A stretch of 64,000 nucleotides of DNA, from positions 1,143 to 65,142 of the forward strand of contig PLZD01000067.1 of the NCBI GenBank assembly GCA_003151975.1. Direction: 5' to 3'. A program made the position numbers and the translations under genes. How positions within the stretch are numbered: the stretch's first letter is position 1; every line of letters begins with the position of its first letter. Under the pieces are notes generated by a model. The model was not told the origin of the DNA, ran no database searches, and saw nothing but the letters and a program-made list of their open reading frames with translations. This document shows, piece after piece, positions 27,814-43,545 of the stretch. Origin of the DNA: Elusimicrobiota bacterium. GTDB lineage: Bacteria > Elusimicrobiota > Elusimicrobia > UBA1565 > UBA9628.

Positions 27814-28852
27814 GCTCGGGGAGTTCGAAAAAGAAGGCTGTTCCTTTTCCCGTCGTAAATCCTATGCGCCCGCCGTGTCGCTCGACGATGGCCTTCGAAA
27901 TCGCCAAGCCCAGGCCGGAGCCGCCCTTCTTGTGGCCTTCGGCCTGCGCGAACCGTCCGAAAATCTTATCGCGAAAGGTCTCCGGTATGCCGGGACCGTC
28001 GTCGCGGATGCTCACGCGAAGTGACGCGGCGTCGCGCTCGATGCTCGCGCGTACCACGCCGCCCTCGGGTGAGAACTTGACGGCATTCGAGAGCAGATTG
28101 GTCAACACCTGGCGCAGGCGGTCGGGGTCGCCCATGACCTTGGCGCCGGGAAGTCCGGCCCTCATTTCGAGGGTGACGCCGGTCTTGGCGCCCAGCCCGC
28201 GCGCCGATTCGAGAATGGACTCCGTCAACGCCGAGAGCTCGAGCGGCTCGAGCTTGAGCGGCGCGGCCCCCGAGGTCAGCTTTTCGATGCTGAGATAATC
28301 GTTTATGAGATCCAGCATGAACTGGCTGTTGCGCATGGCCATGCCCAGCATCTTCTCCGCCGTGTCGGGGTGGCGGCGGGCCAGCTCAAGCGAGCCGATG
28401 ATCGCGGTCAGCGGCGAGCGGAGCTCGTGGGTGGCGAGTGCTATGAGCTCGTCCTTCATGGCCTCGACCTTGCGCCGCTCGGTCACGTCGCGGAAGACCG
28501 CGCGTACGTACTCGGCTTTGCCCGCGTCGTCGAAGCGGTAGTTGATGAAGCCCTCGACCTGGAACTCTGTCCCATTCTTGGAAACGAAGATGCGCTGAAT
28601 CTCGCGCAAGGTCTCTCCCGCGGCCAGCTTCGCCTCGTTTTCCGCGACCAGCACCCGCTGGTCGGGGTGCAGGACGTCGTGGGCGTTCATGCTGTTGATC
28701 TCGTCCTGTGAGTAGCCCAGCTTCTCGCGCCAGGCGCGGTTGACGTAAAGGATGCGGCCCCCGGGCGTGGCGAGGATGACGAGGTCGTCGATGTTCTCGA
28801 GCAAGTCCTCGAGGCGCTGGGTCTCCGCGGCGGGAAGTTGGGCGAGCGTCAT
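27803..28852 (-). CDS. cytoplasmic PAS-domain sensor histidine kinase
   Basis: 349 aa with no TM. It has a PAS region (ILATPGGRILYVNRAWREKLGYSQDEI), an H-box (ATHELRSPLTAIIGSLELA), an N-box (LTNLLSNAVKFSP) and G-boxes (DDGPGIP, GGSGLGLAI). Confidence 0.92.
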   Translation of the reverse strand: MTLAQLPAAETQRLEDLLENIDDLVILATPGGRILYVNRAWREKLGYSQDEINSMNAHDVLHPDQRVLVAENEAKLAAGETLREIQRIFVSKNGTEFQVEGFINYRFDDAGKAEYVRAVFRDVTERRKVEAMKDELIALATHELRSPLTAIIGSLELARRHPDTAEKMLGMAMRNSQFMLDLINDYLSIEKLTSGAAPLKLEPLELSALTESILESARGLGAKTGVTLEMRAGLPGAKVMGDPDRLRQVLTNLLSNAVKFSPEGGVVRASIERDAASLRVSIRDDGPGIPETFRDKIFGRFAQAEGHKKGGSGLGLAISKAIVERHGGRIGFTTGKGTAFFFELPELTS

Positions 28853-29008: not shown

Positions 29009-32000
29009 TTGCAGTGCAATAATGGGTCTATGTTGCGGCGCTTCATTGCTACCGTTGTCTGCGCGGCCCTTATCGTGGCCTGCCCCGGCATCGAGTCATA
29101 CCACGCGATAGCCGGCGAGCTCGGCGAGATCAATGTTGGCGCGCGGCGCGCGCCCGCCCTTCCCGCTCTGCCGACCGCGATCCTGCCCGGCATCGCCAAC
29201 ATCACCCAGCTCTCGCAGACGCCGGGAAATCTAGCCACGGTCACCGAGGTCGCAACAGTTCATTCCGCGATCGCGACGCCTGGCGCGGCCGCTGCAAACA
29301 CTTCTTCGATCTCGAACGCCTCGGCGGTTGCTCAGCCTGAGACGGCGGAGGTTGAAAATGCGGGAAAACTGATCACACCGGAGGTCTTGGCGGGACTCAA
29401 CGCCACGACTAAGGGCGTCTCGGAAGCCGTCGAGGCCCTCGCCAAGCCCGATCTGAGCGCCGAGGGCGCGCACGCCGTCGGCGTCCGCCTCGAAGGCGCG
29501 GTTTCGCCTGCGGTCTCCGCCGAAGAGATTTCTCCCGCGGCCTCGGGCTTCTCAAATTTCTCGGGTAATGTTCATGCCAAGCAGAAGCGCGGCCTCGTCC
29601 AGTCCGTCGGCTTCTTTGCGAAAGCCAAGGGCTTCGTCCGCACAATTTCGGTCGCCGCGGTTCTGACGATCGCAACACTCGGCGGCCCCGTGCTGGCCCA
29701 GACCGTTCCGCAGGGCCCGGCGCCGGCCGGCCAGCAGCAGCAGGTTCCAGCTCCCGCCCAGCCCGGCGCGCCCGTGCTCGGCGCGCCTCAAGACACGGTC
29801 CAGGCCGAGGAGCCCGCGCCCAAGCAAATCGGACCCATCTCGGCGACCATCGCGATCCAAGGCCAGAACATGACGGTCGGCGATCGCTTCCACATCGCGC
29901 TCACGCTGACCAACAGCTCGGATAAGCCGGTCACGATCGCCAATCTGCGGAACTCGCTCAACGACGCCCTGCCCACGGACGTCGAGCTGCAGATGAACTC
30001 AGGGTCGGACGCCGTCACGCTAAAGCCCGGCGAGACGCAGACGGTCGTCTTCGAGACCATCGCGTTTGCCTCGGGCGACATCGCGATGGGCGGCCCGCTG
30101 ATTTTCAACGCGCAGCTCAATGGCCAGGCCGCCGAGATGCAGGCCATACTCGCCGACGGCGCGATCACGGTCAAGTCGGTCCTCACGCCCGATTGGAAGA
30201 AGATCGGCTTCAAGGATATCTACAGCGTCCTGCGCCAGGACGTGCCGCTCTGGGCGTGGCTGGCGGCGATCCCGCTGCTGCTGTCGCTGCTCGTCGCCGG
30301 CGAGCGCGTGCTCGCGGCCCAGCGCCGCGGCGCCAAGGTCCTCTCGGTGGGCCAGCCGCTGCTGGTCTCGACGCGCGCGCGCATGAAAGCGCTCGAAGGC
30401 GCCTTGGAGCAAAACGACGCGGCGTTCTACGCCGAGTACTACTCCATACTCTCGACTTTCCTGATCGACTCGCACGGCTTGTCCGTCAAGGAGCGCGACG
30501 CCAAGACCTTGATCTCGGACCTCAAGAAGGCTAAGAAGCTTTCCTCGGGCCAGCTTAAGGTCGCCTCAGATTTAGCGTTCTCAGCGGAAGCCGCGCGGTT
30601 CGGCGGCCGCGCTACGACGGCCGAGCAGCGCTCCGCCGACCTCGCGGCTCTGTCGTCTCTCGTGGACAACATCGCGGGTGCTTCGAAGACGCAGAAAACC
30701 GAAGGCCTACACAGCCTCGGCGGGCCGATGACGGGCCTGCAGTTCGGCAACCCCTACGCGCTGCTGCTCTTTTTGCCGCTGGCTGGGTATCTGGCTTGGA
30801 AGTTCATAGGCCGCAAGCAGGCCAGCGCCCAAGCCGCTTACCCGCTCTCGACGCTTTCCTCGGTCTCGCCGCGCAAGAGTTTCCGCCAGCGCTTCGGTTG
30901 GCTGACGAAGGGCCTTCGCGCCGCCGCCGTTTCCTTAATTCTGCTCGGCATCGCCGATCCCCAACTCGGCGTGCGCCGCCAGGAGACCATCACGCCGTCG
31001 ACCGACACTGAGCTCATCATCGACGTGTCGGGTTCGATGGACGAAGCCTTCAACGGTTCCGGCAGCCCCAGCAAGCTGGTGGCCGCCGAGGAGGCGATGA
31101 AGGCCTACATCAACGAGCAGCGGCGCGGCACGCAGAACCGCGTGGGCTTGGTCACTTTCTCGGACGAGTCTTACGTCGACATCCACCTCACTCAGGACTA
31201 CGACGCGCTGATCGCGCACTTGAAGGAGCTGCATACGATTTCTTCGACGGCGATCGGCAAGGGCATACTGACCGCGACGGGCCAGTTCCTCGAGGCCAAC
31301 GCCTACGAGCTGACCTCGCAGGACGACCCGCGCATCATCGAGGTTCAGCGCCTCATCCGCACCGAAGGCCTCGGCGCCGCTCTCGAGTATGCCAAGCCCT
31401 ACCCGGACCTCATGGACAAGATCGTCCGGCCCGACCGCAAGAAGGTCATCGTCCTTTTCACGGACGGCGAGTCCAACACTGGCCTTGAGCCCATCCCGGC
31501 CTCCGAGATCGCGGCGAAACTTGGCGTGCGCATCTACACGGTCGGCATCGCTCCCAAGGGCGGCACGGGCGTGGGCTACGATGAGAACACGCTGGTCACG
31601 GTGGCCAAGAACACCGGCGCGCAGTTCTTCCGGGCCGATGACGCCGACCGCATGCGCGAGATCCTGCTCGAAATCAATCGCCTCGAGAAGAGCCCGACCA
31701 AGATCGTGTCGGCCGTATCGGTCCAGAGCTACCAGCAATGGTTCATCATGCTGGCGCTGCTGGCGCTGGGCTTGGAGCTTGGCCTGGCCAACACGAGATT
31801 GCGCGTGCTGTCGGGCTTCTTGATGTTCACTTTGCCGTTCGGCAGCGTCGTCAATTTCAACCCGGCGCAGCAGCCTGCCGCGATCGTGCAGACCGTCGAC
31901 GCCCAGGCCCCGGCCGCGGAATCCGCTTTGCCGACCACCGGCGTGCCCGCCGAGGTCGCCGCGGCCAATCTGCTCTTCAACTCGGGCCGGTATGACGAAG

Positions 32001-35000
32001 CGCTCAAGGCCTACGCCAAGGCGCTCGAGAAGTATCCCGACATGGCCGAGCTCTACTACAACATGGGCAACGCCTACTTGAAGCTGGGCGACGTCGACCG
32101 CGCCAAGATCAGCTACGGCAAGTTTTTGAGCCTCAAACCCGACGCGAAGCTGGCTTCGAAGGCGATCTACAACATGGGCAACGCCGCGCTTTCCGCCAAG
32201 GACGTCGAAGGCGCTGTCGACAATTATAAGGAAGCCCTGCGCCGCGATCCGAACAACGACCGCGCCAAGTGGAACCTTGAGGTCATTAAGGCGCTCCAGA
32301 AAGAGCAGCAGCAGCAGCAATCCCAGCAGCAGCAGAAACAGCAGCAGAAGGAAGGCAAGCAGAAGCAGAACGGCAAGCAAAAGCAGAAAGGCGACCAGAA
32401 GGGCGATCAAAAGGGCGACCAGAAGGGCGATCAGAAAGGCGACCAGAAGGGAGACCAAAAGGGCGATCAGCAGGGCAAGCCCGGCGACCAGAAAGGCGAC
32501 GCCCAAGCCAAGCCCGGCGACAAAGAGAAGAGCGGCGCCGACCAGTTGACCGACAAACTCGGCGACCAGGAAAAGAAGGAAGGCGAGGCCGCGCGCAAGG
32601 CCATCCCGCGTAAGGGCGACAAGGTTTGGGGCCTCCTCGGACTGCCGCTGGCGGCCGGCGGCTCAACCGCCTTGGCTTTCGGCTCAGCCTGGATGCTCTG
32701 GGCGCTGGCTTTCGGCCTGCCCGTCGTCGCCGGCCTCATCGCCTACGGCATCCACAAGAAGATTCAAGCCGCCAAGCAGCTGACTCCGGGCACGGCGCCC
32801 GCGGGTTTTGCTTCCTGGTGGGGACGCAACGCTTTCCTGCGCAAGTCGGCGCTGATGATCACGGCGGCAGCCCTCCTTGGCCTGTCAGCGGCCAACCCGA
32901 AGAGCGGCTACAAGGACGAGCGCCTCAACTTCGGCGGCAAGGACATCGAGGTGGTGCTCGATAACTCGCTCTCCATGCTCTACGCCGAGGACGGCCGCGC
33001 CGACCGCACCCGCAAGGAGCTCACCGATTTCATCACGCACATGCAGGGCACCGACCGCATCGGCCTGGTGGTCTTCGCGGGCTCAGCAAGGACCGCGGCG
33101 CCCATCTCAATGGACTACGGCAATTTCGAGTACAAGCTGCAGAGGTTGGAAGTCGAGTCGCGCGGACTTAAATCCGGCTCGGACCTAGCCGCGGCGGTGC
33201 AGTTTGCCGCCAAGTCCTTCGAGGACGTCAAGCAGCTCGAGGGCCGCCAAAGGATCGTCATCATCATCTCCGACGGCGACATTTTCAACGAGGAACTCGA
33301 GGGCGCCGTAAAATCAGCGCAAGAGCACCACATCACGGTCTACACGATCGGCGTGGGCACGCCGGCCGGCTCCAAGATCAAGGTCCCGACCGAGGACGGC
33401 AAGGGCACCGAGTACGTCATCGACGAGAAGACCGGCCAGCCGGCCGTCACGACACTCGTCGAGGAGCCCCTGCGCCAGATCGCCTCGCGCACCGGCGGCG
33501 CCTACTTCCGCGCAGGCTCAGATTCCTCGATGAACCGCATTCTCGAGCAGATTTCGACGCTGCAGAAAGGCGAGAAGGGCGACACGATCAAGTCCCCGCG
33601 CGGCGTGGCGTCATGGTTCTTGTGGCCGACCATGCTCTTGCTGCTGCTCGAGATGCTGCTGCCGAGCAAGTCGGTGCTCAAGGACGACCGCAAAGAGAAA
33701 GCGCGCGGCGTAGCGGTTCTCGGCTTGGCCTCCTTGCCTTTGTCGGGTTATGCTCTGATGCTGCCTTTCGCCGTGCTCACGACCGTCGCCGTGGGCTTGC
33801 TTGCCGCCGACTATTGGAGCGGCGGAGCGATCCGGCGCAAGATCGCCTGGGAGCTCGAGCGCCGCCGCAAGCTCGTGGAAAACGGCGTCTTGACCGACGC
33901 CGCGGGCTTGTTCGATCTGCGCGAGACCGACGCCCCGAAGCTGTCGGCCTTCCTCAAGTCTTGGAGCGAGGCCGATGAGGCTGGAAAGAAAATCTTGTCC
34001 AACGAGGCGGTCTTAGACGAACAGCTGTGGCGCCAGAAGCTCGCCGCGGCCTTCGTCTACGGCAGCGCGCCGGAGACGCAGGAAGCGCTGCTCACGATGA
34101 TGGCGCGCACCGCGCAGAAGCGCCTCGAGCCGATGGCTCCGGTCGCCGAGCAGTTGCTCGCGCGGCGCGGCCGCCTGCCCTGGCTCGACCATGTCGACGC
34201 GGCGCGGCGCCTCGCGCGCCTCGCGCAGGCCTTCCTCGATAATTCGAAGCCTGAGAATCACGCCGCTTTGGTTTCGCTGCTCTCTCACCCCGACGCCGAG
34301 GTCCAGCAGGCCGCGCGCCAGGCGTTAGGCAGCGAAGTCCCGGCGCCGGCCCTCAAACGCGGGTTTTTCTTCAACTGGCGCAAATGGCTCTCGGTCGCCC
34401 TCTCGACTCTGATGCTCGCGTCCTCCATGACTTGGGCGGGCTTCTCCGGCTACAAGACGACGCAATTCTTCGAGGAGTCGGCCAAGGCGCGGGACTTCTC
34501 GATGCGGACCTTCTACCGCGAGGACATGTTCGTCTTCTCGGACCACTACGCCGACGACCGCATCACGACCGACGTCCTGCCGGCTCTCAAGGCGTGGCAA
34601 GAGAACCCGCAGTCCGCGGGCGCGGGCCTCGAGCGCGCACTGACGGTTCTCTCGCAGTCCCCCGATCCCAAGGCCGACAACGTGCTCGAAGTTATCCTTA
34701 AGCACGGCGACATCCTGCCGCTCACGCCGAAGGCGGAGTATATGCTGCTCCACACCCTCGTCATCCGCGACAACGACGACGTCTGGCGCTTCATGGAGGA
34801 CCACCTCCAGAAGAGCGCGCGCAACCCGCGCGCCGTCATCCTGATGGAGAAGATGATCGCCATAGGTGCTGCCGAGGGCAACGAGAAGGTTTTCCAGAAC
34901 ATCTTCCATTTCCTGAAGAGCCCCAGCGAGCAGATTCAGCAGGTGGCCACGGCCGCGATCGCGGCGTCGCTGTCGGCGCCCGACAAGGTGGCCAAGATCT

Positions 35001-38000
35001 TCGACCGCCTGACCGACGTGCAGTCGCGCTACGCTCAGGACCCCGAAATGAATTTGTGGGTGGAAAACTTCGTGCTCCAGCGTCTGGCGACGGCCGAGGC
35101 CAAGGACATCGACTCGGCCAAGGCGCGGGGCCTCATCGACAAGATTTTGGACGCGGGGTCGCCGTGGGCGGCGATGCGCGCTCAGGCGCTGGCCGCCCAA
35201 GCCGCGCAGCAAGCCCAGCAGCAGCCTCAAGCCGGCGCCGCCCCGGGCGCCGCTCCCCAGGCCCAGCAGCAAGCTCAGATTCCGCCGCCTTTCATCTTGA
35301 TCGTGTTCGGCCAGATGAACGACGCCGAGCAAGCTTTCGTTTCGAACGGCCAGGCCGTCCCCGGGCCGCTGGCCGACATGGTCAAGTACGCGGTCAACCG
35401 CACGATGACGCAGCTCATTAAGGAGGGCGAGGCGAAGTTCGGCGATTTGCACAAGCGTCTCATCGAAGCCGGCGTCGTCCTGCCCGATACTGAGAACTCC
35501 TACGGCGGCGGCTACGACGACGACTACGAGGGGCGCGGTTGGGGCGGCTACCGCGGCGGTCGCGGCGGCAGTTATTCCAGCACGTCGCAGAACTACCGCG
35601 AGCTCTACAAGCTCCAGCACATCCGCGATTTCGCCAAGCAGCTTTCCGAGGCCGCCCAGACGAGCGCCGCGGCCGACAGCGCATCGGTGAAGCCCGAGAC
35701 CCTCGAGTATCTCGACCGCGCCGCCCAGGCTTTGAAAATCATGGAGCCTCTGGGGCAAGCGTCGGGCATGCTCGATGGCGGCAGCGTGGGGGAGAAAGCG
35801 GCCGACGAGGTCAACAAAGTCCTCGACGCCACGGCCTCCAAGCTCACCGGCAGCGGTTTCCTCAACGCCCTGCGCGCCAAAAACGTCGCGCCCAGCAACG
35901 GGGTGGATTCCGGAGCCGCGCGCTTCCTCGAGACCTACACTTTCGAGAACATCGAGGCGATCAAGGCCGTGATCCGGGAGATCGCGGCATCCGGCAAGGG
36001 CTGGGACTACCAGGGCAACCAGCGGACTTTGCTGCTCAGCGAGAAGCAGGCGCTGGCCGCGGCCCTCGACGAGCTCACCGCCGCCGAAGCCAAGGTCTAT
36101 CCGGACAAGGCTAAGCCCGCGGCAGCGAGCGATTTCTGGAAGACGCTGGAGACGCCCGGCGAAGAGAGCCTGGCGTTGGCGCGCTTGAGCGTGGGCGCCG
36201 CCGCGCACGCGGCCGATGCCGAGTTCCAGCTGCGCGCGCTCAACTACCTGACGGCGCACGCCGACAAGAATTCCAATCCCGACGAGCTTTCCGAGATCAT
36301 CGCCCAACTGGCCAAGGCCGTCGAGAAAACCGACAAGGCCCCCGAGGTCCTCTCGATTCTCGCGCGCGTCGTCGACGGCAGGGCAGATAGCGATCCGCTG
36401 ACCGCCGCCATCCGAAAAGAGTATCAGCGCCAGGCGTCCGTCACGATCGCGGACGCGGTCTCAGGCTTCGGAAACCTGAGCCAGAAGCTGATCGATCTCA
36501 AGGTCCGGCCTTCCTCTTATTCCGATAAGCCGTACAAACTGATCGATCTCAAGGTTTTCCTTAAGGCGGTCGAGGACGAGGCGGCCGCCGTGGCCGGGCC
36601 GAATATGAGCGAGGACGCAAAGAAAGCGGCCGCTCGGGCACGGCTGATGGTGCCCAAGATCATCGAGCTGGGGACCAAGGTCGGCATCACGCCGGGAGAC
36701 TCCCCGGCCGATCTCGTCGCCGGTCCGGTCAACGATATCCTGCACCAGGGCTGGCAGCTCTTCGACGGCTCGACCTTCCTCGAGGCCATGCGCCGGCAGG
36801 GACTCGAGCCCGCGGGCAGCTCGACCGACATCTACACGGGCTACTACCAGGCTTACTCCAAGGACAGCCTCGAGAAGATCCTGAAATGGCTCAAGAACGT
36901 GAAGGCTTTGGGCGACGGCTGGAAATCGCAAGACATGTCCACCAAGCCCCTGAGCGACAAGGAGAAGGAATACCTCGACAAGGCCATCAAGGGCATCCAG
37001 GACCAGATCGACAACTATCCGAAAGCCGGGCCCGCCGCGACCGAAAAGAAAGTGTTCCACGGCATGGCGCTCGTCGGCTTGGGAACGCTCGGCACGGCGA
37101 TTTCCTGGATCGGAACCGGCCTGCTGATCGCGGCCGCGGCGGTGGTGATCTACTACGTGGTCCGCGCGGCGCTTAAGAAGACGAAGGCCGCGAGTCTGAC
37201 CCCCGTTTTCAACGCGGCGGCCGAAAGAACCGCGCCGGGACTCGACGGCAGATTTAAGAAAATCGAGATCACGGCCAAGCGCGTGGCCAACTCGGTGGCC
37301 GGCGGCAACTTTCGATCCGTTTTCATCGGCGCGGGCGGCACGGATTTCGCGGAAAGCAAGCCCTACGCCGGCGAGGACCTGCGCGACGTCGACTGGAAGA
37401 CCACCGCGCGCCAGGGCGAGCTCTACGCCAAGAAGTACGAGCTCGAAAAAGACATGCCGCTCATGCTGCTCATCGATCTCTCGCGCTCGGCCCAGTTCGG
37501 CACGCGCGGCGAATCCAAACGTGGCGTTATTGAAGACGCTTCCTCGGTTCTCGCGCTGGCGGCCGCCAACACCAACCTGCGCGTCGGCGCCATCATCTTC
37601 TCCGACAAGGTCGAGGCCTACATCCCGCCGCAATCCGGCGTCAACCACGCCCGCGAGATCGTGCGCCGCGTGCTCGCGTTTGATCCTAAGGGCCAAGCCA
37701 CGGACCTCAAGCCTGCGCTCGGTCTAGCGCTTAAGGAACTGCGTTCCCGGTCCATGATCGCGGTCGTCTCGGATTTCATCGCTCCTGATTTCAAGAATTC
37801 GCTGATGGCGCTCTCAGCGCGCCACGACCTGCGCCTGATCCGCGTCTCCGATCCCGCCGAGACCGCGCCCCTGCCAAAGGTGGGCCTGGTGCTCGTGCGC
37901 GACGCCGAGACCGGCGAGGTGCGCTACGTCGACACTTCCGATACGCGCTTCCGCACCGAGCACGCCGCCTTGCTGGCCAAGCAGGAAGCCGCCCGCCAGG

Positions 38001-38098
38001 CCGCTTTTACCGCCGCGCGCACCGTGCCGCTCACGCTTTCGACGGAAGGGGACCCTCTCGAGGCCCTGGCCGTGTCGCTTAGCCCCAAGAAAAAATGA
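29009..38098 (+). CDS. giant (3,029 aa) multi-pass membrane protein: fused BatD/DUF4381-like + BatA-like vWA + TPR + BatB-like vWA + about 1,100-aa unknown module + DUF58-like domain
   Basis: The frame is uninterrupted for 9,090 nt. An alternative start at 29030 gives MLRRFIATVVCAALIVAC, which is signal/lipobox-like. There are three DxSxS MIDAS-type motifs: DVSGS at 31022-31036, DNSLS at 32960-32974 and DLSRS at 37475-37489. It also has a BatA-type N-terminus (FGNPYALLLFLPLAGYLAW), TPR repeats, and a DUF58 signature (YAGEDLRDVDWKTTAR). The stop overlaps the moxR start. Confidence 0.85.
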   Translation: MQCNNGSMLRRFIATVVCAALIVACPGIESYHAIAGELGEINVGARRAPALPALPTAILPGIANITQLSQTPGNLATVTEVATVHSAIATPGAAAANTSSISNASAVAQPETAEVENAGKLITPEVLAGLNATTKGVSEAVEALAKPDLSAEGAHAVGVRLEGAVSPAVSAEEISPAASGFSNFSGNVHAKQKRGLVQSVGFFAKAKGFVRTISVAAVLTIATLGGPVLAQTVPQGPAPAGQQQQVPAPAQPGAPVLGAPQDTVQAEEPAPKQIGPISATIAIQGQNMTVGDRFHIALTLTNSSDKPVTIANLRNSLNDALPTDVELQMNSGSDAVTLKPGETQTVVFETIAFASGDIAMGGPLIFNAQLNGQAAEMQAILADGAITVKSVLTPDWKKIGFKDIYSVLRQDVPLWAWLAAIPLLLSLLVAGERVLAAQRRGAKVLSVGQPLLVSTRARMKALEGALEQNDAAFYAEYYSILSTFLIDSHGLSVKERDAKTLISDLKKAKKLSSGQLKVASDLAFSAEAARFGGRATTAEQRSADLAALSSLVDNIAGASKTQKTEGLHSLGGPMTGLQFGNPYALLLFLPLAGYLAWKFIGRKQASAQAAYPLSTLSSVSPRKSFRQRFGWLTKGLRAAAVSLILLGIADPQLGVRRQETITPSTDTELIIDVSGSMDEAFNGSGSPSKLVAAEEAMKAYINEQRRGTQNRVGLVTFSDESYVDIHLTQDYDALIAHLKELHTISSTAIGKGILTATGQFLEANAYELTSQDDPRIIEVQRLIRTEGLGAALEYAKPYPDLMDKIVRPDRKKVIVLFTDGESNTGLEPIPASEIAAKLGVRIYTVGIAPKGGTGVGYDENTLVTVAKNTGAQFFRADDADRMREILLEINRLEKSPTKIVSAVSVQSYQQWFIMLALLALGLELGLANTRLRVLSGFLMFTLPFGSVVNFNPAQQPAAIVQTVDAQAPAAESALPTTGVPAEVAAANLLFNSGRYDEALKAYAKALEKYPDMAELYYNMGNAYLKLGDVDRAKISYGKFLSLKPDAKLASKAIYNMGNAALSAKDVEGAVDNYKEALRRDPNNDRAKWNLEVIKALQKEQQQQQSQQQQKQQQKEGKQKQNGKQKQKGDQKGDQKGDQKGDQKGDQKGDQKGDQQGKPGDQKGDAQAKPGDKEKSGADQLTDKLGDQEKKEGEAARKAIPRKGDKVWGLLGLPLAAGGSTALAFGSAWMLWALAFGLPVVAGLIAYGIHKKIQAAKQLTPGTAPAGFASWWGRNAFLRKSALMITAAALLGLSAANPKSGYKDERLNFGGKDIEVVLDNSLSMLYAEDGRADRTRKELTDFITHMQGTDRIGLVVFAGSARTAAPISMDYGNFEYKLQRLEVESRGLKSGSDLAAAVQFAAKSFEDVKQLEGRQRIVIIISDGDIFNEELEGAVKSAQEHHITVYTIGVGTPAGSKIKVPTEDGKGTEYVIDEKTGQPAVTTLVEEPLRQIASRTGGAYFRAGSDSSMNRILEQISTLQKGEKGDTIKSPRGVASWFLWPTMLLLLLEMLLPSKSVLKDDRKEKARGVAVLGLASLPLSGYALMLPFAVLTTVAVGLLAADYWSGGAIRRKIAWELERRRKLVENGVLTDAAGLFDLRETDAPKLSAFLKSWSEADEAGKKILSNEAVLDEQLWRQKLAAAFVYGSAPETQEALLTMMARTAQKRLEPMAPVAEQLLARRGRLPWLDHVDAARRLARLAQAFLDNSKPENHAALVSLLSHPDAEVQQAARQALGSEVPAPALKRGFFFNWRKWLSVALSTLMLASSMTWAGFSGYKTTQFFEESAKARDFSMRTFYREDMFVFSDHYADDRITTDVLPALKAWQENPQSAGAGLERALTVLSQSPDPKADNVLEVILKHGDILPLTPKAEYMLLHTLVIRDNDDVWRFMEDHLQKSARNPRAVILMEKMIAIGAAEGNEKVFQNIFHFLKSPSEQIQQVATAAIAASLSAPDKVAKIFDRLTDVQSRYAQDPEMNLWVENFVLQRLATAEAKDIDSAKARGLIDKILDAGSPWAAMRAQALAAQAAQQAQQQPQAGAAPGAAPQAQQQAQIPPPFILIVFGQMNDAEQAFVSNGQAVPGPLADMVKYAVNRTMTQLIKEGEAKFGDLHKRLIEAGVVLPDTENSYGGGYDDDYEGRGWGGYRGGRGGSYSSTSQNYRELYKLQHIRDFAKQLSEAAQTSAAADSASVKPETLEYLDRAAQALKIMEPLGQASGMLDGGSVGEKAADEVNKVLDATASKLTGSGFLNALRAKNVAPSNGVDSGAARFLETYTFENIEAIKAVIREIAASGKGWDYQGNQRTLLLSEKQALAAALDELTAAEAKVYPDKAKPAAASDFWKTLETPGEESLALARLSVGAAAHAADAEFQLRALNYLTAHADKNSNPDELSEIIAQLAKAVEKTDKAPEVLSILARVVDGRADSDPLTAAIRKEYQRQASVTIADAVSGFGNLSQKLIDLKVRPSSYSDKPYKLIDLKVFLKAVEDEAAAVAGPNMSEDAKKAAARARLMVPKIIELGTKVGITPGDSPADLVAGPVNDILHQGWQLFDGSTFLEAMRRQGLEPAGSSTDIYTGYYQAYSKDSLEKILKWLKNVKALGDGWKSQDMSTKPLSDKEKEYLDKAIKGIQDQIDNYPKAGPAATEKKVFHGMALVGLGTLGTAISWIGTGLLIAAAAVVIYYVVRAALKKTKAASLTPVFNAAAERTAPGLDGRFKKIEITAKRVANSVAGGNFRSVFIGAGGTDFAESKPYAGEDLRDVDWKTTARQGELYAKKYELEKDMPLMLLIDLSRSAQFGTRGESKRGVIEDASSVLALAAANTNLRVGAIIFSDKVEAYIPPQSGVNHAREIVRRVLAFDPKGQATDLKPALGLALKELRSRSMIAVVSDFIAPDFKNSLMALSARHDLRLIRVSDPAETAPLPKVGLVLVRDAETGEVRYVDTSDTRFRTEHAALLAKQEAARQAAFTAARTVPLTLSTEGDPLEALAVSLSPKKK
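29790..30700 (+). other. BatD/DUF4381-like module of the giant ORF
   Basis: A beta-rich segment (ISATIAIQGQNMTVGDRFHIALTLTNSSDKPVTI...) is followed by a TM (VPLWAWLAAIPLLLSLLVAG, 30241-30300). A helical segment with FYAEYYSILSTFLIDSHGLSVKERDAKTL...AARFGG comes after it. The assignment relies on my memory of the family pattern and is not HMM-verified. Confidence 0.5.
30730..31815 (+). other. BatA-like vWA module (TM-TM-vWA-TM)
   Basis: The module has FGNPYALLLFLPLAGYLAWKF, then LRAAAVSLILLGIADPQLG, then the MIDAS motif DVSGSMDE, then VIVLFTDGESN, and ends in the TM QQWFIMLALLALGLELGLA. Confidence 0.8.
31955..32290 (+). other. TPR repeats (BatC-like)
   Basis: Three to four 34-residue repeats are present (AANLLFNSGRYDEALKAYAKALEKYPDMAELYYNMGNAYLKLGDVDRAKISYGKFLSLKPD...AVDNYKEALRRDPNN). 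They are followed by a Q/K-rich tail. Confidence 0.85.
32387..32470 (+). repeat. 12-nt in-frame tandem repeat x7 encoding (KGDQ)7
   Basis: The unit aaaggcgaccag and synonymous variants repeat seven times, then degenerate copies (QGKPGDQKGDAQAKPGDKEK) run to about 32530. The repeat is embedded in a Q/K-rich tract spanning 32290-32600. Confidence 0.9.
32620..33680 (+). other. BatB-like vWA module
   Basis: Two hydrophobic segments lead into ...SAANPKSGYKDERLNFGGKDIEVVLDNSLSMLYAEDGRADRTRKEL, then VIIISDGD, then a terminal TM (WFLWPTMLLLLLEMLL). Confidence 0.8.
35370..36125 (+). repeat. copy 1 of a diverged internal protein-level duplication in the giant ORF
   Basis: This copy aligns by eye with copy 2. 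The matching pairs are FGDLHKRLIEAGV / FGNLSQKLIDLKV, YKLQHIRDFAKQL / YKLIDLKVFLKAV and GSGFLNALRAKNVAPS / GSTFLEAMRRQGLEPA. Two more pairs are GKGWDYQGNQRTLLLSEKQALAAALDEL / GDGWKSQDMSTKPLSDKEKEYLDKAIKGI and YPDKAKPAA / YPKAGPAA. Confidence 0.65.
36395..37040 (+). repeat. copy 2 of the internal duplication
   Basis: See copy 1. This copy also contains a short direct repeat, KLIDLKV, twice (36484-36504 and 36538-36558). Confidence 0.65.
37250..38095 (+). other. DUF58-like (vWA-fold) C-terminal module
   Basis: The module reads FRSVFIGAGGTDFAESKPYAGEDLRDVDWKTTARQGELYAKKYELEKDMPLMLLIDLSRSAQFG...AVVSDF. It is preceded by a TM at 37056-37175. Confidence 0.8.
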
Positions 38099-39615
38099 AC
38101 CGAGGTAACGCCATGAAGACGACGCTCTCGCAAATGATGAAGACTGCGGCCTTGCTGGGCCTGTTCGCCCTGCTCTGTCCCCGCGCGGCGCACGCTGTTG
38201 ATTTCGCCGAGCGCTCCGCGGTGACGCCCGGCGTCCAGCTCAAGCTTGTGACGCTCGACCCGAAGATCGGCGCGCTCGGCAAGCCCGGCGACGGCATCAG
38301 CATCGACCCCCTCGCGGCCCAGCTTCACAATGTCCTGACCGCGGCCGGCCTCTTGACCGAGGCCCCCGGCCAGATCGCGATCCTCACGATCCCTCAGCCC
38401 TTGGCGACGATTTCCAACGGCCCTAAAGCCGCCAACGACGTCGGGACTCCGGCGGAGGCCTCGCAGGCGCGTCTTGCCGAGATCACTAAGACGGTTGTGG
38501 ATATGCCCGACATCTCGAAGGCCGAAGGCACGGATGCCTCCGGCGCTGGACGCACGCTCTCCGACGCCGTCACCGGAGAGAAGACGGTCCACGCCGGCGC
38601 CGTCGAGGCCGAGGCGACGCCGACGGCTCCCGCTAAGCCGCTCAAGCAGCAAATCACCGAGGGCAAAGCCGTCGTCGACGGCATCCGCTCCGAAGTCAGC
38701 AAGGTCATCGTCGGCCAGAATGAAATGATCAACTCGATCATCATGACGATGATCGCGCGCCAGCACGTTCTGCTCGAAGGTCTGCCCGGCGTCGGCAAAA
38801 CCGAAACCGCCAAGGCCTTCGCCGACGCGATCGACGGCTCGTTCCAGCGCGTGCAGGGCACTTCCGACAAGCTGCCCTCCGACATCCTCGGCACCGAGGT
38901 CCTTCAAGAGGACCCGGCCACCGGCAAGAAGTTCTGGGAGCTCTCTAAGGGCCCCATCTTCACGAACATCCTGCTCGCCGACGAAATCAACCGCATGCCG
39001 CCCAAGGCCCAGGCGTCCTTGCTCGAAGCCATGGCCGAAGGCCGCGTGACCATCGGCCGCCAGACGGTCGACCTGCAGCGCTTCACGGTGCTCGCCACGC
39101 AAAACCCCGTCGAGCAGGACGGCACCTACCGCCTGCCCGAGGCGCAGCTCGACCGCTTCATGTTCAAGGTGCTCGTGCCTCAGCCGAGCGCGTCGGATTT
39201 GAAGGTCATCATGGAGCGCAACCGGTCGAAGGAGAACCGCCCGAAAGCGTCCAAGGTCACGAACTTGGCGCAGTTGGACGACATCCGGCGCACCGCCGAG
39301 CAGATCCCGATGGACGCTCAGATCGAGGACTACATCATCAAGATCGTCATGGCCGCCAAGGAGCACGCCGATCTCAAGGATAGTGTGGAATACAGCGTCT
39401 ACACGCGCGCGGCGATCTTCATGGCGCAGGCCGCCCGCATCCACGCCTTGATGGAAGGGCGCGATTGGGTGAGCCCCGCGGATGTGCGCGCGGTAGCACC
39501 CCTCGTCATGCGGCACCGCATCGTGCTCAACTACCAGGCCGCCGGCACGACGTCCGACCAGGTCATCACGAAGATTCTCGACTTGGTCGCTCCGCCGAAG
39601 GTCGCGGCCAAGTAA
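38095..39615 (+). CDS. MoxR-family AAA+ ATPase with about 190-aa N-terminal extension
   Basis: 506 aa. The core starts at about 38668 with Walker A (GLPGVGKT, 38779-38802), Walker B (LLADEINR), [24 protein letters not shown], and a C-terminal lid. The N-terminus has the hydrophobic segment [21 protein letters not shown] followed by an A/P/T/E-rich stretch. It has an ATGA overlap with the giant ORF. Confidence 0.9.
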
Positions 39616-39638: not shown

Positions 39639-39666
39639 GAGGCCCCCGAAAGGGGGCCTTTGTTTT
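39639..39666 (+). terminator. Rho-independent terminator downstream of moxR
   Basis: The stem GGCCCCC (39641-39647) pairs with GGGGGCC (39652-39658) around a GAAA tetraloop, and TTTGTTTT follows. Confidence 0.85.
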
Positions 39667-39722
39667 GCCGGCAGAGTTTTCTCATATACAACAGACCGGC
39701 TTGTTCGTATGATCTGTGCTGC

Positions 39723-41471
39723 ATGCGGGTTCTTTGCTCAGGCCTTCGTTTCCTTTGCGTCGGCGTCGTTCTCGCGTCTGCGTGCGGTTCCGGCGATCAA
39801 CTGCGCGCGGCGTCGCCCGCAGCCTGCGAACAGTCGTTGATCTCGTCGTGGCAGCAGTCTCTCCCCTCGGTGGGATTTGCGAGCGCCGCGTCGGCGGCCG
39901 CGTATGACGCCGAGATCGCGGCCCTTCTTGATCGTCCCTGGATGGGGCATCCGCTGTCCACGTATCCGGGAGGACGCTGGCCCGCCGTCTCGGTGGCGGT
40001 CGTCCAGCAAGGCAGGCTCGTCTTCGCCAAGAGCTATGGCTTTGCGAATATCTCGCAGCCTCAGCTGGCCCACCCCGATGACCTCTTCCGTCTGGCAAGC
40101 GACAGCAAGCAGATCACCGGCGCCGTGATCTTGAAGCTGATCGCCGACGGTCAATCGGTCGACGGCGATCCGGCGCATCGGCTGACTCTGCAGAGCAAGG
40201 TCTTCCAGATCCTGGCCAGTCCGCCCGGTGCCCTCGCGCCGCTCGCGGGGCCCGGGACGCTTCATGCGGACCTCGACGACATCACGGTCGAGGATCTCCT
40301 GCACCACGCAGGCGGATGGAACGGCGGCGTCGGCGATCCGGTAGACTACGCCGGCAAGCCGGGGGCCGTCCTTCCGCCGACCGACAAGGATGTGGTCCGG
40401 TACATGATGAACCAGCCGGTCCAGCACAGGCCGCATGGCAGCACTTACTGCTACTCGAATTTTGGCTACAACGTGCTGGCGACTTTGGTCGAGAAGATAA
40501 CAGGCCGATCCTATGAGAGCGTCGCAAAAGACCTCGTGCTGCGGCCCTTGGGCATCACGCGCATGAAAATCGGTGATTCGCTCAAATCCGGTGCCGGCGA
40601 GGTCACGTACTACGCGGCCGAGGGCGGTGGAAACTTGAGGTCGCTGTTTCCAGAGATGACCGGGCCCACGGTCTCCGGAGAGGACGCGCCCTACGGCAGT
40701 TGGTCTCTCTACGCGGGCCGGGGCGCGGGCGGCTGGATTGGTTCTGCGATGGACATGGTGCGTTTTCAGATCGGCGTGGATGGGACGGGCCCGGTCCAGC
40801 TTTTCTCCTCGCCGCAAGCGATGGTCTCGAGCGCCAATATCTCGCCTAACGCCTGCTACCCAAATTACAATCCGGCGACGCAGTGGTACAACGCCGGCTG
40901 GATCGTCGTCAAAAACGGCGTGTGGGGACATGACGGCGGCGCCACGGGCGCGGGAAGCAACACGACGAAGCTTCCCAACGGCGACGGCTACGCGGCCGTC
41001 ATCAATATGTCCGCAGCGCCCCCGAAGGGAGAAGTCTTCGATTGGGACGGGGCTCTCTCGAGAGCTTACCATCGCACGCTCGCCAACGGCGGCTCGTTTT
41101 TAAAAACCGACCTTTTCGATCAATTTGGAGAGTGGACCGCGTGGCGCGGCAAGGCCGGCATTTCATCGAACGCCGCTCATGATCTTGGCGCCGGCTGCGC
41201 GTACAAGGGGAAAAACTATTCCGCGTGCTATCCTTCGCGAATCGAGGGACGGCAGACCCGGGCGGGGGCAAGCTACCGGGCCGAGTTCGTGCCGCTGCAT
41301 GCCGGAGGCGAGGTTAAATACTCTTTGGGAGCCGCCTGCAATGACTTCGCGGCGATGGATAAGAAATATTTGAGCGGCGGTTATCACCGAGTCAACCTTC
41401 AATGGTTCGAGGACCCGGCGGGGCGCATGCGCTTTCAAAGCGTGTGGGTCAAGGCGGCCGACCGGCGTTGA
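39723..41471 (+). CDS. beta-lactamase-fold serine hydrolase (class C/PBP4*-like) with C-terminal extra domain
   Basis: ATG 39723 gives the signal-like N-terminus MRVLCSGLRFLCVGVVLASAC. The track start at 39660 lies inside the terminator. The SxxK nucleophile motif sits in FRLASDSKQITG, and YSNFGYNVL is present. About 180 extra C-terminal aa end in GGYHRVNLQWFEDPAGRMRFQSVWVKA. Confidence 0.8.
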   Translation: MRVLCSGLRFLCVGVVLASACGSGDQLRAASPAACEQSLISSWQQSLPSVGFASAASAAAYDAEIAALLDRPWMGHPLSTYPGGRWPAVSVAVVQQGRLVFAKSYGFANISQPQLAHPDDLFRLASDSKQITGAVILKLIADGQSVDGDPAHRLTLQSKVFQILASPPGALAPLAGPGTLHADLDDITVEDLLHHAGGWNGGVGDPVDYAGKPGAVLPPTDKDVVRYMMNQPVQHRPHGSTYCYSNFGYNVLATLVEKITGRSYESVAKDLVLRPLGITRMKIGDSLKSGAGEVTYYAAEGGGNLRSLFPEMTGPTVSGEDAPYGSWSLYAGRGAGGWIGSAMDMVRFQIGVDGTGPVQLFSSPQAMVSSANISPNACYPNYNPATQWYNAGWIVVKNGVWGHDGGATGAGSNTTKLPNGDGYAAVINMSAAPPKGEVFDWDGALSRAYHRTLANGGSFLKTDLFDQFGEWTAWRGKAGISSNAAHDLGAGCAYKGKNYSACYPSRIEGRQTRAGASYRAEFVPLHAGGEVKYSLGAACNDFAAMDKKYLSGGYHRVNLQWFEDPAGRMRFQSVWVKAADRR

Positions 41472-43429: not shown

Positions 43430-43545
43430 GCGGGCTCATACTATCAAAAGGAGCGCTTAGGCCAATAGGGCCGATCTTGCCGGGACCAAAGATGAGCCGT
43501 CGTTGGGTCCATTGGCCCAAGCTGGCATGGCGTGAAACCCCTACA

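What the first reader, a model, noticed from the sequence alone, without database searches (positions are those of the whole stretch)
38095..38667. MoxR ATPase carries a 190-aa N-terminal extension that starts with a signal-peptide-like segment
Seen in the sequence: the recognisable AAA+ core begins near 38668, with Walker A at 38779-38802. Upstream of the core the ORF encodes [34 protein letters not shown], followed by about 150 aa of A/P/T/E/G-rich sequence.
Established knowledge: MoxR ATPases are normally cytoplasmic proteins of about 300-350 aa that need ATP.
Inference: there are three possibilities. The hydrophobic segment may be an uncleaved membrane anchor that tethers MoxR to the giant membrane protein. 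Translation may start at an internal codon. Or the ATPase may be mis-targeted, which is unlikely. A tethered MoxR would fit the all-in-one fusion logic of this locus.
Basis: partly seen in the sequence, partly recalled or inferred. Interest (0 to 1): 0.5.

Follow-up and report, generated by a model that had tools for sequence, protein, structure and literature searches.

The report
MoxR ATPase with secretion-signal extension
A normally cytoplasmic, ATP-driven MoxR chaperone here carries a real N-terminal add-on, conserved across an Elusimicrobiota clade, that starts like an export signal; it always sits next to a giant fused "Bat" membrane protein, so either the ATPase is tethered to the membrane in an unusual way or it is exported to a compartment thought to lack ATP.

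Summary
ORF 38095-39615 encodes a complete MoxR AAA+ core (Walker A at 38779-38802) preceded by about 180 extra residues. The likely start is ATG 38113, which has a GAGG 7 nt upstream, rather than 38095.

The extension is translated and conserved:
- All 34 aligned relatives (44-72% identity; those named are Elusimicrobiota MAGs) begin with a positively charged n-region and a short hydrophobic core.
- An Ala/Pro-rich spacer follows, then a conserved helix-loop-helix motif, then the ATPase.
- In all 11 loci examined the gene directly follows a roughly 3,000-aa fused Bat protein ending in DUF58.
- That giant's own N-terminus looks like the same module.

An internal start is rejected. The window has no in-frame start codon between 38503 and 38725. 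All 11 loci have a Shine-Dalgarno motif before the signal-encoding start, and none has a conserved internal one.

The hydrophobic segment resembles a Sec signal (cytoplasmic N-terminus, short core) more than a long membrane anchor. This clashes with an intact ATPase and a DUF58 partner that is probably cytoplasmic.

My best guess is a membrane-targeting and docking module that holds MoxR at the giant (0.4). True export is a serious rival (about 0.3). This is a new variant of a known kind, of moderate interest.

The parts
38095..38112 (+). Six in-frame codons (MNRGNA) upstream of the probable start. The ATG at 38095 overlaps the TGA of the giant ORF (ATGA).
   Evidence: Orthologues start at the equivalent of 38113.
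38102..38105 (+). Shine-Dalgarno-like GAGG, 7 nt before ATG 38113.
   Evidence: All 11 loci have GGAG/GAGG/AGGA/AAGG 5-11 nt before the signal-encoding start.
38113..38196 (+). Signal-peptide-like segment [28 protein letters not shown]: n-region charge +2, hydrophobic core about 12 aa, then Pro, then AHA before VD.
   Evidence: The same three-part layout is present in 34 of 34 relatives.
38197..38454 (+). Flexible spacer rich in Ala, Pro, Gly, Leu and Thr (aa 29-114).
   Evidence: AlphaFold2 pLDDT is mostly below 50. In relatives the median length is 71 aa with about 14% Pro and a median of 4 charged residues. There is no consistent second transmembrane segment.
38455..38583 (+). Conserved helix-loop-helix motif (aa 115-157): ...[39 protein letters not shown].
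   Evidence: Near-invariant P, G, A, T, G columns. AlphaFold2 helices 115-129 and 139-154 with block-mean pLDDT about 77-82. A profile search of 1.84 billion representative proteins finds it convincingly only in this MoxR clade.
38584..38640 (+). Short low-confidence spacer between the motif and the ATPase.
38641..39615 (+). MoxR AAA+ core plus lid. Walker A 38779-38802, Walker B 38968-38985, sensor 1 39094-39108, Arg-finger region 39136-39159, sensor 2 region 39400-39417.
   Evidence: Pfam AAA_3 and AAA_lid_2. PDB 2r44 matches at E=1.2e-63 by sequence and TM-score 0.89, rmsd 2.5 A by Foldseek. The catalytic residues are invariant in 34 sequences. Coordinates.
29030..38098 (+). Partner gene: giant fused Bat protein of about 3,022 aa. 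It contains a BatA N-terminal domain, VWA domains, TPR repeats, a long helical region and a C-terminal DUF58.
   Evidence: Pfam and NCBIfam. Directly upstream of the extended MoxR in all 11 loci.
29030..29524 (+). The giant's own N-terminal look-alike module: a signal-like segment (29030-29113), an Ala/Pro-rich stretch, and the motif VSEAVEALAKPDLSAEGAHAVGVRLEG (29417-29524).
   Evidence: hhalign against the MoxR motif gives P=0.012 in the expected register. Cognate pairs are more similar than non-cognate pairs, permutation p=0.03. Suggestive, not proven.
29594..29707 (+). Lys/Arg-rich stretch plus a second signal-like hydrophobic segment in the giant, directly after its N-terminal module.
   Evidence: Mean K+R count is 3.4 before the segment and 0.4 after it, over 8 orthologues.
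37055..37990 (+). The giant's last hydrophobic segment (37055-37174), followed by Lys/Arg residues and the DUF58 domain (37367-37990). This is the usual MoxR partner domain.
   Evidence: Canonical DUF58 proteins next to canonical MoxR genes are soluble proteins of about 290 aa.

Best explanation
The extension is a translated, clade-conserved targeting-and-docking module added to an otherwise ordinary, catalytically competent MoxR AAA+ ATPase. It consists of a Sec-type hydrophobic N-terminus, a flexible Ala/Pro-rich spacer of about 70-90 aa, and a helix-loop-helix motif of about 40 aa.

Its role is to keep the ATPase physically coupled to its dedicated partner. That partner is the roughly 3,000-aa fused Bat membrane protein encoded immediately upstream, which ends in the DUF58 (VWA-like) domain that MoxR normally works with.

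Shown:
- The module is real and is translated from the first start.
- It is conserved and is strictly linked to the giant.
- The giant begins with a similar module.

Inferred:
- The hydrophobic N-terminus engages the inner membrane.
- The helix-loop-helix docks on the partner, possibly on the giant's matching module.
- The spacer lets the hexameric ring reach the DUF58 end of the giant at the cytoplasmic face, where ATP is available.

This reading requires the signal-like helix to be used in an unorthodox way, either embedded in one leaflet or held by the partner without being translocated. I hold it only slightly above true export.
For: Real coding sequence and true start:
- GC3 is 0.84 in the extension.
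- A Shine-Dalgarno motif precedes the signal-encoding start in 11 of 11 loci, and there is no conserved internal start.
- The 'short' annotated homologue P0020 is a mis-called start: the ORF L009:9716-11182 carries the signal.

Conservation:
- All 34 aligned relatives share the layout signal, spacer, motif, core.
- Canonical MoxRs of many phyla match only core residues from about 171 onward and have 30-45 aa before the VIVGQ motif.

Link to the giant:
- All 11 loci have it directly upstream, with gaps of 16 nt or less or overlaps.
- Downstream genes vary.

The ATPase is competent:
- Walker A and B, sensor 1, the Arg finger and sensor 2 are invariant.
- The fold matches 2r44.

The partner domain is probably cytoplasmic:
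- Lys/Arg residues directly follow the giant's last hydrophobic segment in all 10 orthologues read.
- Canonical DUF58 partners are soluble.

Other support:
- The giant has a look-alike N-terminal module.
- In both the giant and the variant P0127, the module is followed by a Lys/Arg-rich stretch and then hydrophobic segments. By the positive-inside rule this places the end of the module in the cytoplasm.
Against: - The N-terminus has the determinants of a cytoplasmic-N, outside-C orientation: n-region charge +1 to +4 in 34 of 34 and neutral or acidic residues after the core. A membrane-spanning version would put the spacer in the periplasm.
- Its hydrophobic core is short (about 9-14 aa) and resembles the cleaved signals of exported proteins in the same window, such as the OEP protein ending ...ASAHA.
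- No second transmembrane segment exists between the signal and the core.
- The spacer composition matches that of other exported proteins in these loci.
- Counting the giant's transmembrane segments back from its BatA-type VWA domain puts the giant's own module in the periplasm. That VWA domain is periplasmic in the Borrelia homologue BB0173 (PMC5700661).
- No docking contact has been shown.
Confidence: 0.4

Rival explanations
1. True Sec export. The N-terminus is a working signal peptide, either cleaved or retained as a cytoplasmic-N anchor, and the whole MoxR including the AAA+ ring ends up in the periplasm. There it acts on the giant's periplasmic VWA and TPR parts. This requires a periplasmic nucleotide supply or an unknown energy coupling.
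For: - The three-part signal layout is conserved in 34 of 34: positive n-region, short hydrophobic core, a Pro or Gly after the core in 28 of 34, and no Lys/Arg in positions +1 to +4 in 31 of 34.
- It resembles bona fide exported proteins of the same window.
- The Ala/Pro-rich spacer is typical of exported proteins in these loci.
- The mature protein has no cysteine in 34 of 34, whereas 62 of 73 canonical relatives have cysteine.
- BatA-type VWA domains are periplasmic by experiment in Borrelia (PMC5700661). In the giant the same follows from three Lys/Arg-rich short loops.
- Segment counting puts the giant's matching module in the periplasm.
- In 4 loci the next gene also encodes a signal plus spacer in front of a phosphoesterase.
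Against: - All ATPase motifs are invariant, so the enzyme needs NTP. As far as I know, the bacterial periplasm is regarded as ATP-free and no exported bacterial AAA+ is known. Three full-text searches found none.
- The DUF58 partner domain looks cytoplasmic.
- Cysteine depletion covers the whole giant, including the parts that would be cytoplasmic under the topology inferred here. It therefore does not mark a compartment, and a Cys-rich lipoprotein is encoded next door.
- Small-x-small cleavage sites occur by composition alone in 62% of comparable windows.
Confidence: 0.3
2. The extension is a regulatory or pro-region rather than a localisation device. Examples would be an auto-inhibitory or substrate-mimicking tail engaged by the ring's pore, or a region removed by a protease such as the neighbouring CPBP-trypsin-PDZ protein.
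For: - The region is long and disordered, with one short structured motif.
- A CPBP (Rce1-like) + trypsin + PDZ protease gene recurs near the pair in 6 of 11 loci, including window 43477-46527.
Against: - It does not explain why the first 25 residues keep signal-sequence features in every orthologue.
- The protease neighbourhood could simply be shared synteny, because DHDPS, DapF, TPR, patatin and OEP genes travel with it.
- No processing site has been identified.
Confidence: 0.12
3. Translation starts internally, or an internal start gives a second isoform, producing an ordinary cytoplasmic MoxR. The upstream 180 codons would be unused or only occasionally used.
For: - An in-frame ATG exists at 38503 (Met137).
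- Some database entries are annotated with short starts: P0020, P0029, P0037.
Against: - No in-frame start codon lies between 38503 and 38725, and there is no Shine-Dalgarno motif before Met137.
- Met137 is M, L or V in orthologues and sits inside the conserved motif.
- GC3 and amino-acid conservation show the region is translated.
- The upstream frame of P0020 carries the full signal.
- In 4 of 11 loci no in-frame start lies within 60 codons of the core.
Confidence: 0.04
4. Artefact: a separate small secreted-protein gene fused in silico to moxR by a sequencing or assembly error.
For: None found.
Against: The same uninterrupted frame occurs in independent assemblies from NCBI, JGI, ENA and Logan.
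Confidence: 0.01

Closest known systems
Canonical MoxR (MRP-type) AAA+ ATPases, e.g. CHU_0153 of Cytophaga hutchinsonii (PDB 2r44)
   Same: The AAA_3 core and AAA_lid_2, all catalytic motifs, 37% identity, TM-score 0.89, and a gene adjacent to a DUF58/VWA partner.
   Different: Canonical members are about 310-345 aa with only 30-45 aa before the VIVGQ motif and no targeting signal. This clade adds about 180 aa (signal, spacer, helix-loop-helix) and has no cysteine.
Bat (Bacteroides aerotolerance) loci: MoxR, DUF58, BatA-E of Bacteroides, Leptospira and Borrelia (BB0170-BB0176)
   Same: The same domain set: MoxR, DUF58, BatA N-terminal domain, VWA, TPR (PMC3557215, PMC5700661). BatA-type VWA domains face the periplasm.
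   Different: Here the BatA-, BatB- and BatC-like parts and DUF58, along with other regions, are fused into one protein of about 3,000 aa. moxR follows it rather than leading the operon. Both proteins carry a signal-plus-spacer-plus-motif N-terminal module.
TonB/TolA-type envelope proteins: N-terminal cytoplasmic-N anchor plus Pro/Ala-rich spacer plus C-terminal domain
   Same: The architecture: a positively charged N-terminus, one hydrophobic helix and a long Pro/Ala-rich spacer (my own knowledge of these families, compared).
   Different: The C-terminal domain of TonB and TolA is an energy-free periplasmic binding domain energised from the membrane. Here it is an ATPase. No homology was tested.
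ZipA-type anchors (N-terminus outside, C-terminus in the cytoplasm) with a Pro/Gln-rich linker
   Same: They would give the topology the tether model needs: anchor, flexible linker, cytoplasmic globular domain (my own knowledge).
   Different: ZipA-type anchors have an uncharged N-terminal flank and a strongly positive C-terminal flank. Here the charges are the other way round.
Torsins: ER-lumenal AAA+ ATPases with a signal peptide
   Same: The only well-known AAA+ proteins made with a signal sequence (my own knowledge). They are an analogy for the export reading.
   Different: They are eukaryotic, the ER lumen imports ATP, and they belong to a different AAA+ clade. No relationship is implied.

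Membership tests
MoxR AAA+ ATPase (Pfam AAA_3 / MRP type) | AAA_3 domain above the gathering score, plus AAA_lid_2 | tested here: met
   AAA_3 scores 177.8 bits against a cut-off of 27. AAA_lid_2 scores 67 bits against 22.7.
MoxR AAA+ ATPase (Pfam AAA_3 / MRP type) | Intact Walker A, Walker B, sensor 1, Arg finger and sensor 2 | tested here: met
   K229, T230, D290, E291, N331, R348 and R432 (500-aa numbering) are invariant in 34 sequences.
MoxR AAA+ ATPase (Pfam AAA_3 / MRP type) | Fold like solved MoxR structures | tested here: met
   AlphaFold2 core pLDDT is above 90. Foldseek top hit is 2r44: TM-score 0.89, rmsd 2.5 A. phmmer E=1.2e-63.
MoxR AAA+ ATPase (Pfam AAA_3 / MRP type) | Gene next to a VWA/DUF58 partner | tested here: met
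   DUF58 forms the C-terminus of the ORF directly upstream in 11 of 11 loci.
MoxR AAA+ ATPase (Pfam AAA_3 / MRP type) | Soluble cytoplasmic protein of about 300-350 aa without a targeting signal (the usual form, not a formal criterion) | tested here: not met
   The protein is 500 aa with a signal-like N-terminus. Canonical relatives lack this.
Sec (SPase I) signal peptide | Positively charged n-region | tested here: met
   +2 in the window protein and +1 to +4 in 34 of 34 relatives.
Sec (SPase I) signal peptide | Short hydrophobic h-region (about 7-15 aa) ending in a helix breaker | tested here: met
   The core is about 9-14 aa. A Pro or Gly lies at -4 to -8 in 28 of 34. The uncharged run is 13 aa here, the same as the exported OEP protein of this window, against 20-22 for the membrane anchors MreC, RodA and the PBP.
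Sec (SPase I) signal peptide | Small residues at -3 and -1 (AxA) and an export-compatible early mature region | tested here: inconclusive
   A site is present in 34 of 34 (strict form in 28 of 34), for example AHA before VD. Composition alone gives a strict site in 62% of comparable windows. Lys/Arg is absent from +1 to +4 in 31 of 34.
Sec (SPase I) signal peptide | Call by a trained predictor (SignalP, DeepTMHMM), and actual cleavage or export | not testable with these tools
   No such predictor or experiment was available. Only hand-made rules were used.
Uncleaved N-terminal membrane anchor holding a cytoplasmic domain | Hydrophobic stretch long enough to span the bilayer (about 18 aa or more) | tested here: inconclusive
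   The best 19-residue Kyte-Doolittle mean is 1.2-2.0 (1.52 in the window protein). The uncharged run has a median of 16 aa including the polar c-region.
Uncleaved N-terminal membrane anchor holding a cytoplasmic domain | Flanking charges that leave the C-terminal side in the cytoplasm (neutral N-flank, positive C-flank) | tested here: not met
   The N-flank is +1 to +4 and the C-flank has a median of +1 (range -2 to +2).
Lipoprotein (SPase II) signal | Conserved lipobox cysteine | tested here: not met
   The Cys in LLC-P of the window protein is absent from most orthologues.
Tat signal | Twin-arginine motif in the n-region | tested here: not met
   None of the 34 N-termini has an RR motif.
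Bat (aerotolerance) system | Co-occurrence of MoxR, DUF58, BatA-type N-terminal domain plus VWA, and TPR | tested here: met
   All are present but fused into one ORF plus moxR.
Bat (aerotolerance) system | A role in aerotolerance or oxidative stress | not testable with these tools
   The function is unresolved even in model organisms (PMC3557215).

The most novel reading that the evidence does not exclude
This Elusimicrobiota clade exports a fully competent MoxR AAA+ ATPase to the periplasm through a Sec signal, cleaved or retained as an anchor. There it works on the periplasmic VWA and TPR parts of the giant Bat fusion. That would be the first bacterial extracytoplasmic AAA+ machine, and it would imply a periplasmic nucleotide supply or a new way of energising it.
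Probability: 0.3. Interest if true: 0.85.

Novelty: new variant of a known kind. Interest (0 to 1): 0.55.

Why it matters
MoxR ATPases and Bat loci are widespread, yet their mechanism is poorly understood. One standing puzzle is that the ATPase and DUF58 are cytoplasmic while the BatA/B VWA domains face the periplasm.

This clade welds the Bat parts tested here (BatA-, BatB- and BatC-like regions and DUF58) into one giant protein. It also gives both that protein and its ATPase the same kind of N-terminal signal-plus-spacer-plus-motif module, which offers a natural handle on how the two compartments are coupled.

If the ATPase is merely tethered, this is a neat example of enforcing stoichiometry and proximity by targeting rather than by fusion. 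If it is really exported, it overturns the rule that the bacterial periplasm has no ATP-driven chaperones.

Either outcome can be tested with simple reporter fusions.

Tried and rejected
- Internal start or isoform: rejected.
- Mis-annotated short homologues: P0020 was checked and has the signal in its true ORF. P0029 and P0037 were not checked.
- Lipoprotein or Tat signal: no conserved Cys and no RR motif.
- A hidden second transmembrane segment in the spacer, which would give a classical type I topology with a cytoplasmic ATPase. Some orthologues have Pro-rich hydrophobic stretches (19-residue Kyte-Doolittle mean up to 2.0), but each has 2-4 prolines. The window protein reaches only 1.28, so this is rejected as a general solution.
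- AxA conservation as proof of cleavage: composition alone gives 62%.
- Cysteine depletion as a marker of compartment. It is striking (0 of 34 against 62 of 73; the giant has 0-3 Cys beyond its signal segment in about 3,000 aa, against a 0.69% background). However, it covers the whole giant, and a neighbouring lipoprotein is Cys-rich, so it is not decisive.
- Known domains in the extension: none in Pfam at E<=1.
- The motif elsewhere: a profile search of 1.84 billion representatives returned only this clade plus low-complexity noise.
- Homology between the MoxR and giant modules: only weak support, hhalign P=0.012 and permutation p=0.03.
- Species-level genome scan: the first scan found nothing.
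- Topology of the giant by the positive-inside rule: it is internally inconsistent at the second signal-like segment and ambiguous at the last hydrophobic segment.
- Literature: no report of a signal-bearing MoxR or of this giant fusion.

Full report
**Observation.** The ORF 38095-39615 (+) is real. It encodes a complete MoxR-type AAA+ ATPase: AAA_3 at aa 224-357 of the 506-aa reading, AAA_lid_2 at aa 429-494, and Walker A at exactly 38779-38802. The core matches the solved MoxR-type protein 2r44 by sequence (E=1.2e-63) and by predicted fold (TM-score 0.89, rmsd 2.5 A). Upstream of the core lie about 180 residues that match no Pfam family, even at E<=1. The quoted N-terminal peptide is correct. 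The extension has the codon signature of a translated gene: GC3 is 0.84, against 0.86 for the upstream gene.

**Which start is used.** The ATG at 38095 overlaps the stop codon of the upstream giant ORF. The ATG at 38113 has GAGG 7 nt upstream, and the closest homologue begins at the equivalent residues (MKKTLSQ...). Either start keeps the signal-like segment.
There is no in-frame ATG, GTG or TTG between codon 137 (38503) and codon 211 (38725), and codon 211 already lies inside the AAA+ domain.
- Met137 sits inside a conserved motif, where orthologues have M, L or V.
- Across 11 loci the signal-encoding start always has a Shine-Dalgarno motif 5-11 nt upstream. Internal starts are neither conserved in position nor, as a rule, preceded by one.
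- A database homologue annotated as 393 aa (P0020) has the full signal-bearing frame upstream (L009:9716-11182).

**Conservation and context.** A search of 5.8 billion protein clusters gives about 40 proteins of 460-540 aa with the extension. Those that carry a name are from Elusimicrobiota metagenome-assembled genomes. Below them come only ordinary MoxRs of 310-345 aa.
- Thirty-four full-length relatives (44-72% identity) align with the same layout.
- Eighty canonical MoxR loci from many phyla match only query residues from about 171 onward, and the eight whose upstream frames I read have 30-45 aa before the VIVGQ motif.
- In all 11 loci read (the window and L001-L010) the gene follows, within 16 nt or overlapping, a giant ORF of 2,860-3,300 aa. 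In one long-read genome that ORF is split into fragments. It fuses a BatA N-terminal domain, VWA domains, TPR repeats and a long helical region, and it ends in DUF58.
- Genes further downstream differ, so the conserved unit is the pair.

**Anatomy of the extension (500-aa numbering).**
- aa 1-28: the signal-like segment.
- aa 29-114: a spacer rich in Ala, Pro, Gly, Leu and Thr, with AlphaFold2 pLDDT mostly below 50.
- aa 115-157: a helix-loop-helix motif. AlphaFold2 gives helices 115-129 and 139-154 with block-mean pLDDT about 77-82, and the alignment has near-invariant P, G, A, T and G columns.
- aa 158-176: a short spacer.
- From aa 177: the first AAA+ helix.
- In relatives the spacer has a median length of 71 aa, about 14% Pro, a median of 4 charged residues and uncharged runs of about 50 aa.
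- A profile of the motif searched against 1.84 billion representative proteins found it convincingly only in this MoxR clade.
- One variant (P0127, 656 aa, also preceded by a DUF58 end) has an extra hydrophobic insert of about 40 aa between the motif and the ATPase.

**Signal peptide or anchor.**
- All 34 N-termini have a net positive n-region (+1 to +4), a hydrophobic core of about 9-14 residues and usually a Pro or Gly after it. Lys/Arg is absent from the four residues after the putative cleavage site in 31 of 34.
- A simple rule applied to 47 genes of the window flags only envelope or membrane proteins, the giant and this MoxR. It flags none of the evident cytoplasmic proteins.
- The uncharged run here (13 aa) equals that of the exported OEP protein and is shorter than the true anchors MreC, RodA and the PBP (20-22 aa).
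- These features argue for a cytoplasmic N-terminus with the C-terminal side outside, that is a signal rather than an anchor that would leave the C-terminus in the cytoplasm.
- One caveat applies. Small-x-small sites are present in all 34, but composition alone yields a strict site in 62% of comparable windows. Cleavage therefore cannot be inferred from them.
- No trained predictor was available.

**The partner and the topology problem.**
- Conserved hydrophobic segments in eight giants, together with the Lys/Arg content of three short loops, place the BatA- and BatB-type VWA domains in the periplasm.
- This agrees with experimental mapping of Borrelia BB0173: N-terminus outside, VWFA domain translocated, C-terminus cytosolic (PMC5700661).
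- The last hydrophobic segment before DUF58 is followed by Lys/Arg in all 10 orthologues read. Canonical DUF58 partners of canonical MoxRs are soluble proteins of about 290 aa. The DUF58 end is therefore probably cytoplasmic, although the count of preceding segments is ambiguous.
- The giant also begins with a signal-like segment, an Ala/Pro-rich stretch and a motif resembling the MoxR one (PDLSAEG...G..LEG against PDISKAEG...G..LSDAVTG). Support for a relationship is weak but in the right register: hhalign P=0.012, and cognate pairs beat non-cognate pairs at p=0.03.
- In the giant this module is followed by a Lys/Arg-rich stretch and a second signal-like segment. By flanking charge this argues that the end of the module is cytoplasmic. 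Counting segments back from the periplasmic VWA domain argues that the module is periplasmic. The data do not resolve this conflict.

**Cysteine.**
- Beyond the signal, all 34 MoxR relatives lack cysteine, whereas 62 of 73 canonical relatives have it.
- The giants have 0-3 Cys beyond the signal segment in about 3,000 aa, against 0.69% in the other genes of the window.
- This fits an oxidising location or a design that tolerates oxidants. It covers the entire giant, and a Cys-rich lipoprotein is encoded next door, so I do not use it to assign a compartment.

**Mechanism.** Two readings survive.
- Reading (a), held at 0.4: the module is a targeting-and-docking device that keeps a cytoplasmic AAA+ ring at the membrane next to the DUF58 end of the giant. 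It fits the intact ATPase, the probable location of DUF58 and the fusion logic of the locus. It requires the signal-like helix to be used unconventionally.
- Reading (b), held at 0.3: the protein is really exported. This fits every feature of the N-terminus and spacer and the periplasmic VWA domains. It requires nucleotide in the periplasm and separates MoxR from DUF58.
- Lesser options: a regulatory or pro-region (0.12), internal initiation (0.04) and an artefact (0.01).

**Comparison with known systems.** The protein is a member of the MoxR family by every sequence and structure criterion tested. It departs only from the usual soluble form of 300-350 aa. The locus is a fused form of a Bat locus. 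The extension works like a Sec signal plus a TonB/TolA-like spacer, but membership in any such family was not tested beyond general features. I found no paper describing a signal-bearing MoxR or this giant fusion. I rate it a new variant of a known kind.

**Limits.** There was no signal or topology predictor, no structure of a complex and no expression or proteomic data. The taxonomic spread rests on the names that sources give to a handful of the homologues.

Noticed in passing
window 29030-29707 (giant ORF aa 8-233); also L001:935-, L003:1213-, L004:312-, L006:1143-, L007:82-, L008:1176-: The giant Bat fusion begins with two signal-like segments in tandem. The first is followed by an Ala/Pro-rich stretch and a motif resembling the MoxR extension. 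After a Lys/Arg-rich stretch comes a second segment with its own n/h/c layout. Both cannot have the same orientation unless an unseen membrane crossing lies between them.
   Followed up: partly
window 43477-46527 (+); L001:15090-17639, L004:13557-16073, L005:10107-12683, L008:11596-14223, L009:15845-18373: A protein of 840-1,016 aa combining an Rce1-like/CPBP intramembrane protease, a trypsin-like domain and (in most copies) a PDZ domain recurs near the giant-MoxR pair in 6 of 11 loci. In two of them it is directly downstream. This could be a functional link, such as processing of the N-terminal modules, or simply shared synteny.
   Followed up: partly
L004:11499-12833, L006:11538-12971, L009:11196-12440, L002:11497-12282: In four loci the gene right after moxR encodes a signal peptide, an Ala/Pro/Ser-rich spacer and a region with an 'HGSRQTG...SDLDLGV' motif (absent from L009). 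In three of them a Metallophos phosphoesterase domain follows; the L002 ORF is a truncated 261-aa copy with no Pfam hit. By eye the motif looks like a nucleotidyltransferase signature; Pfam gives only a weak MdcG hit (E=0.013). None of these proteins has a cysteine. They would be a second nucleotide-related enzyme with an export-type N-terminus in the same operon.
   Followed up: partly
window 29030-38095 and 38197-39612; orthologues L001-L008: Cysteine is almost completely absent from the whole system. The giants have 0-3 Cys beyond the signal segment in about 3,000 aa, and the mature MoxR has none in 34 of 34. The background in the other genes of the window is 0.69%, and canonical MoxR cores average 1.25 Cys.
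   Followed up: yes
L010:1214-3184 (P0127, 656 aa): A variant of the extended MoxR has an additional hydrophobic insert of about 40 aa (a 22-aa W...W stretch plus 18 aa) between the helix-loop-helix motif and the ATPase, preceded by an Arg-rich stretch. Depending on whether this forms one or two membrane spans, it could be the 'missing' transmembrane segment.
   Followed up: partly
window 32300-32520 (giant aa ~1100-1170): A Lys/Gln/Gly/Asp-rich tandem repeat (KGDQKGDQ...) lies between the TPR block and the BatB-like part of the giant. The orthologue in L009 has a PGDGK repeat at the same place.
   Followed up: no
L002:774-9990 (complete genome CP096137): In this long-read genome the giant gene is broken into several ORFs (138, 1,286, 512 and 216 aa, with a gap). 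This suggests frameshift errors or a decaying copy, while the extended moxR stays intact.
   Followed up: no
window 27803-28852 (-) and L001:1-666 (-): A PAS-HisKA-HATPase histidine kinase is encoded divergently just upstream of the giant, both in the window and in its closest relative. It may be a regulator of the pair.
   Followed up: no
window 39660-41471 (+): The gene after moxR in the window is a beta-lactamase-fold (serine hydrolase) protein with a lipoprotein-like N-terminus and many cysteines. It is not conserved at this position in other loci.
   Followed up: partly
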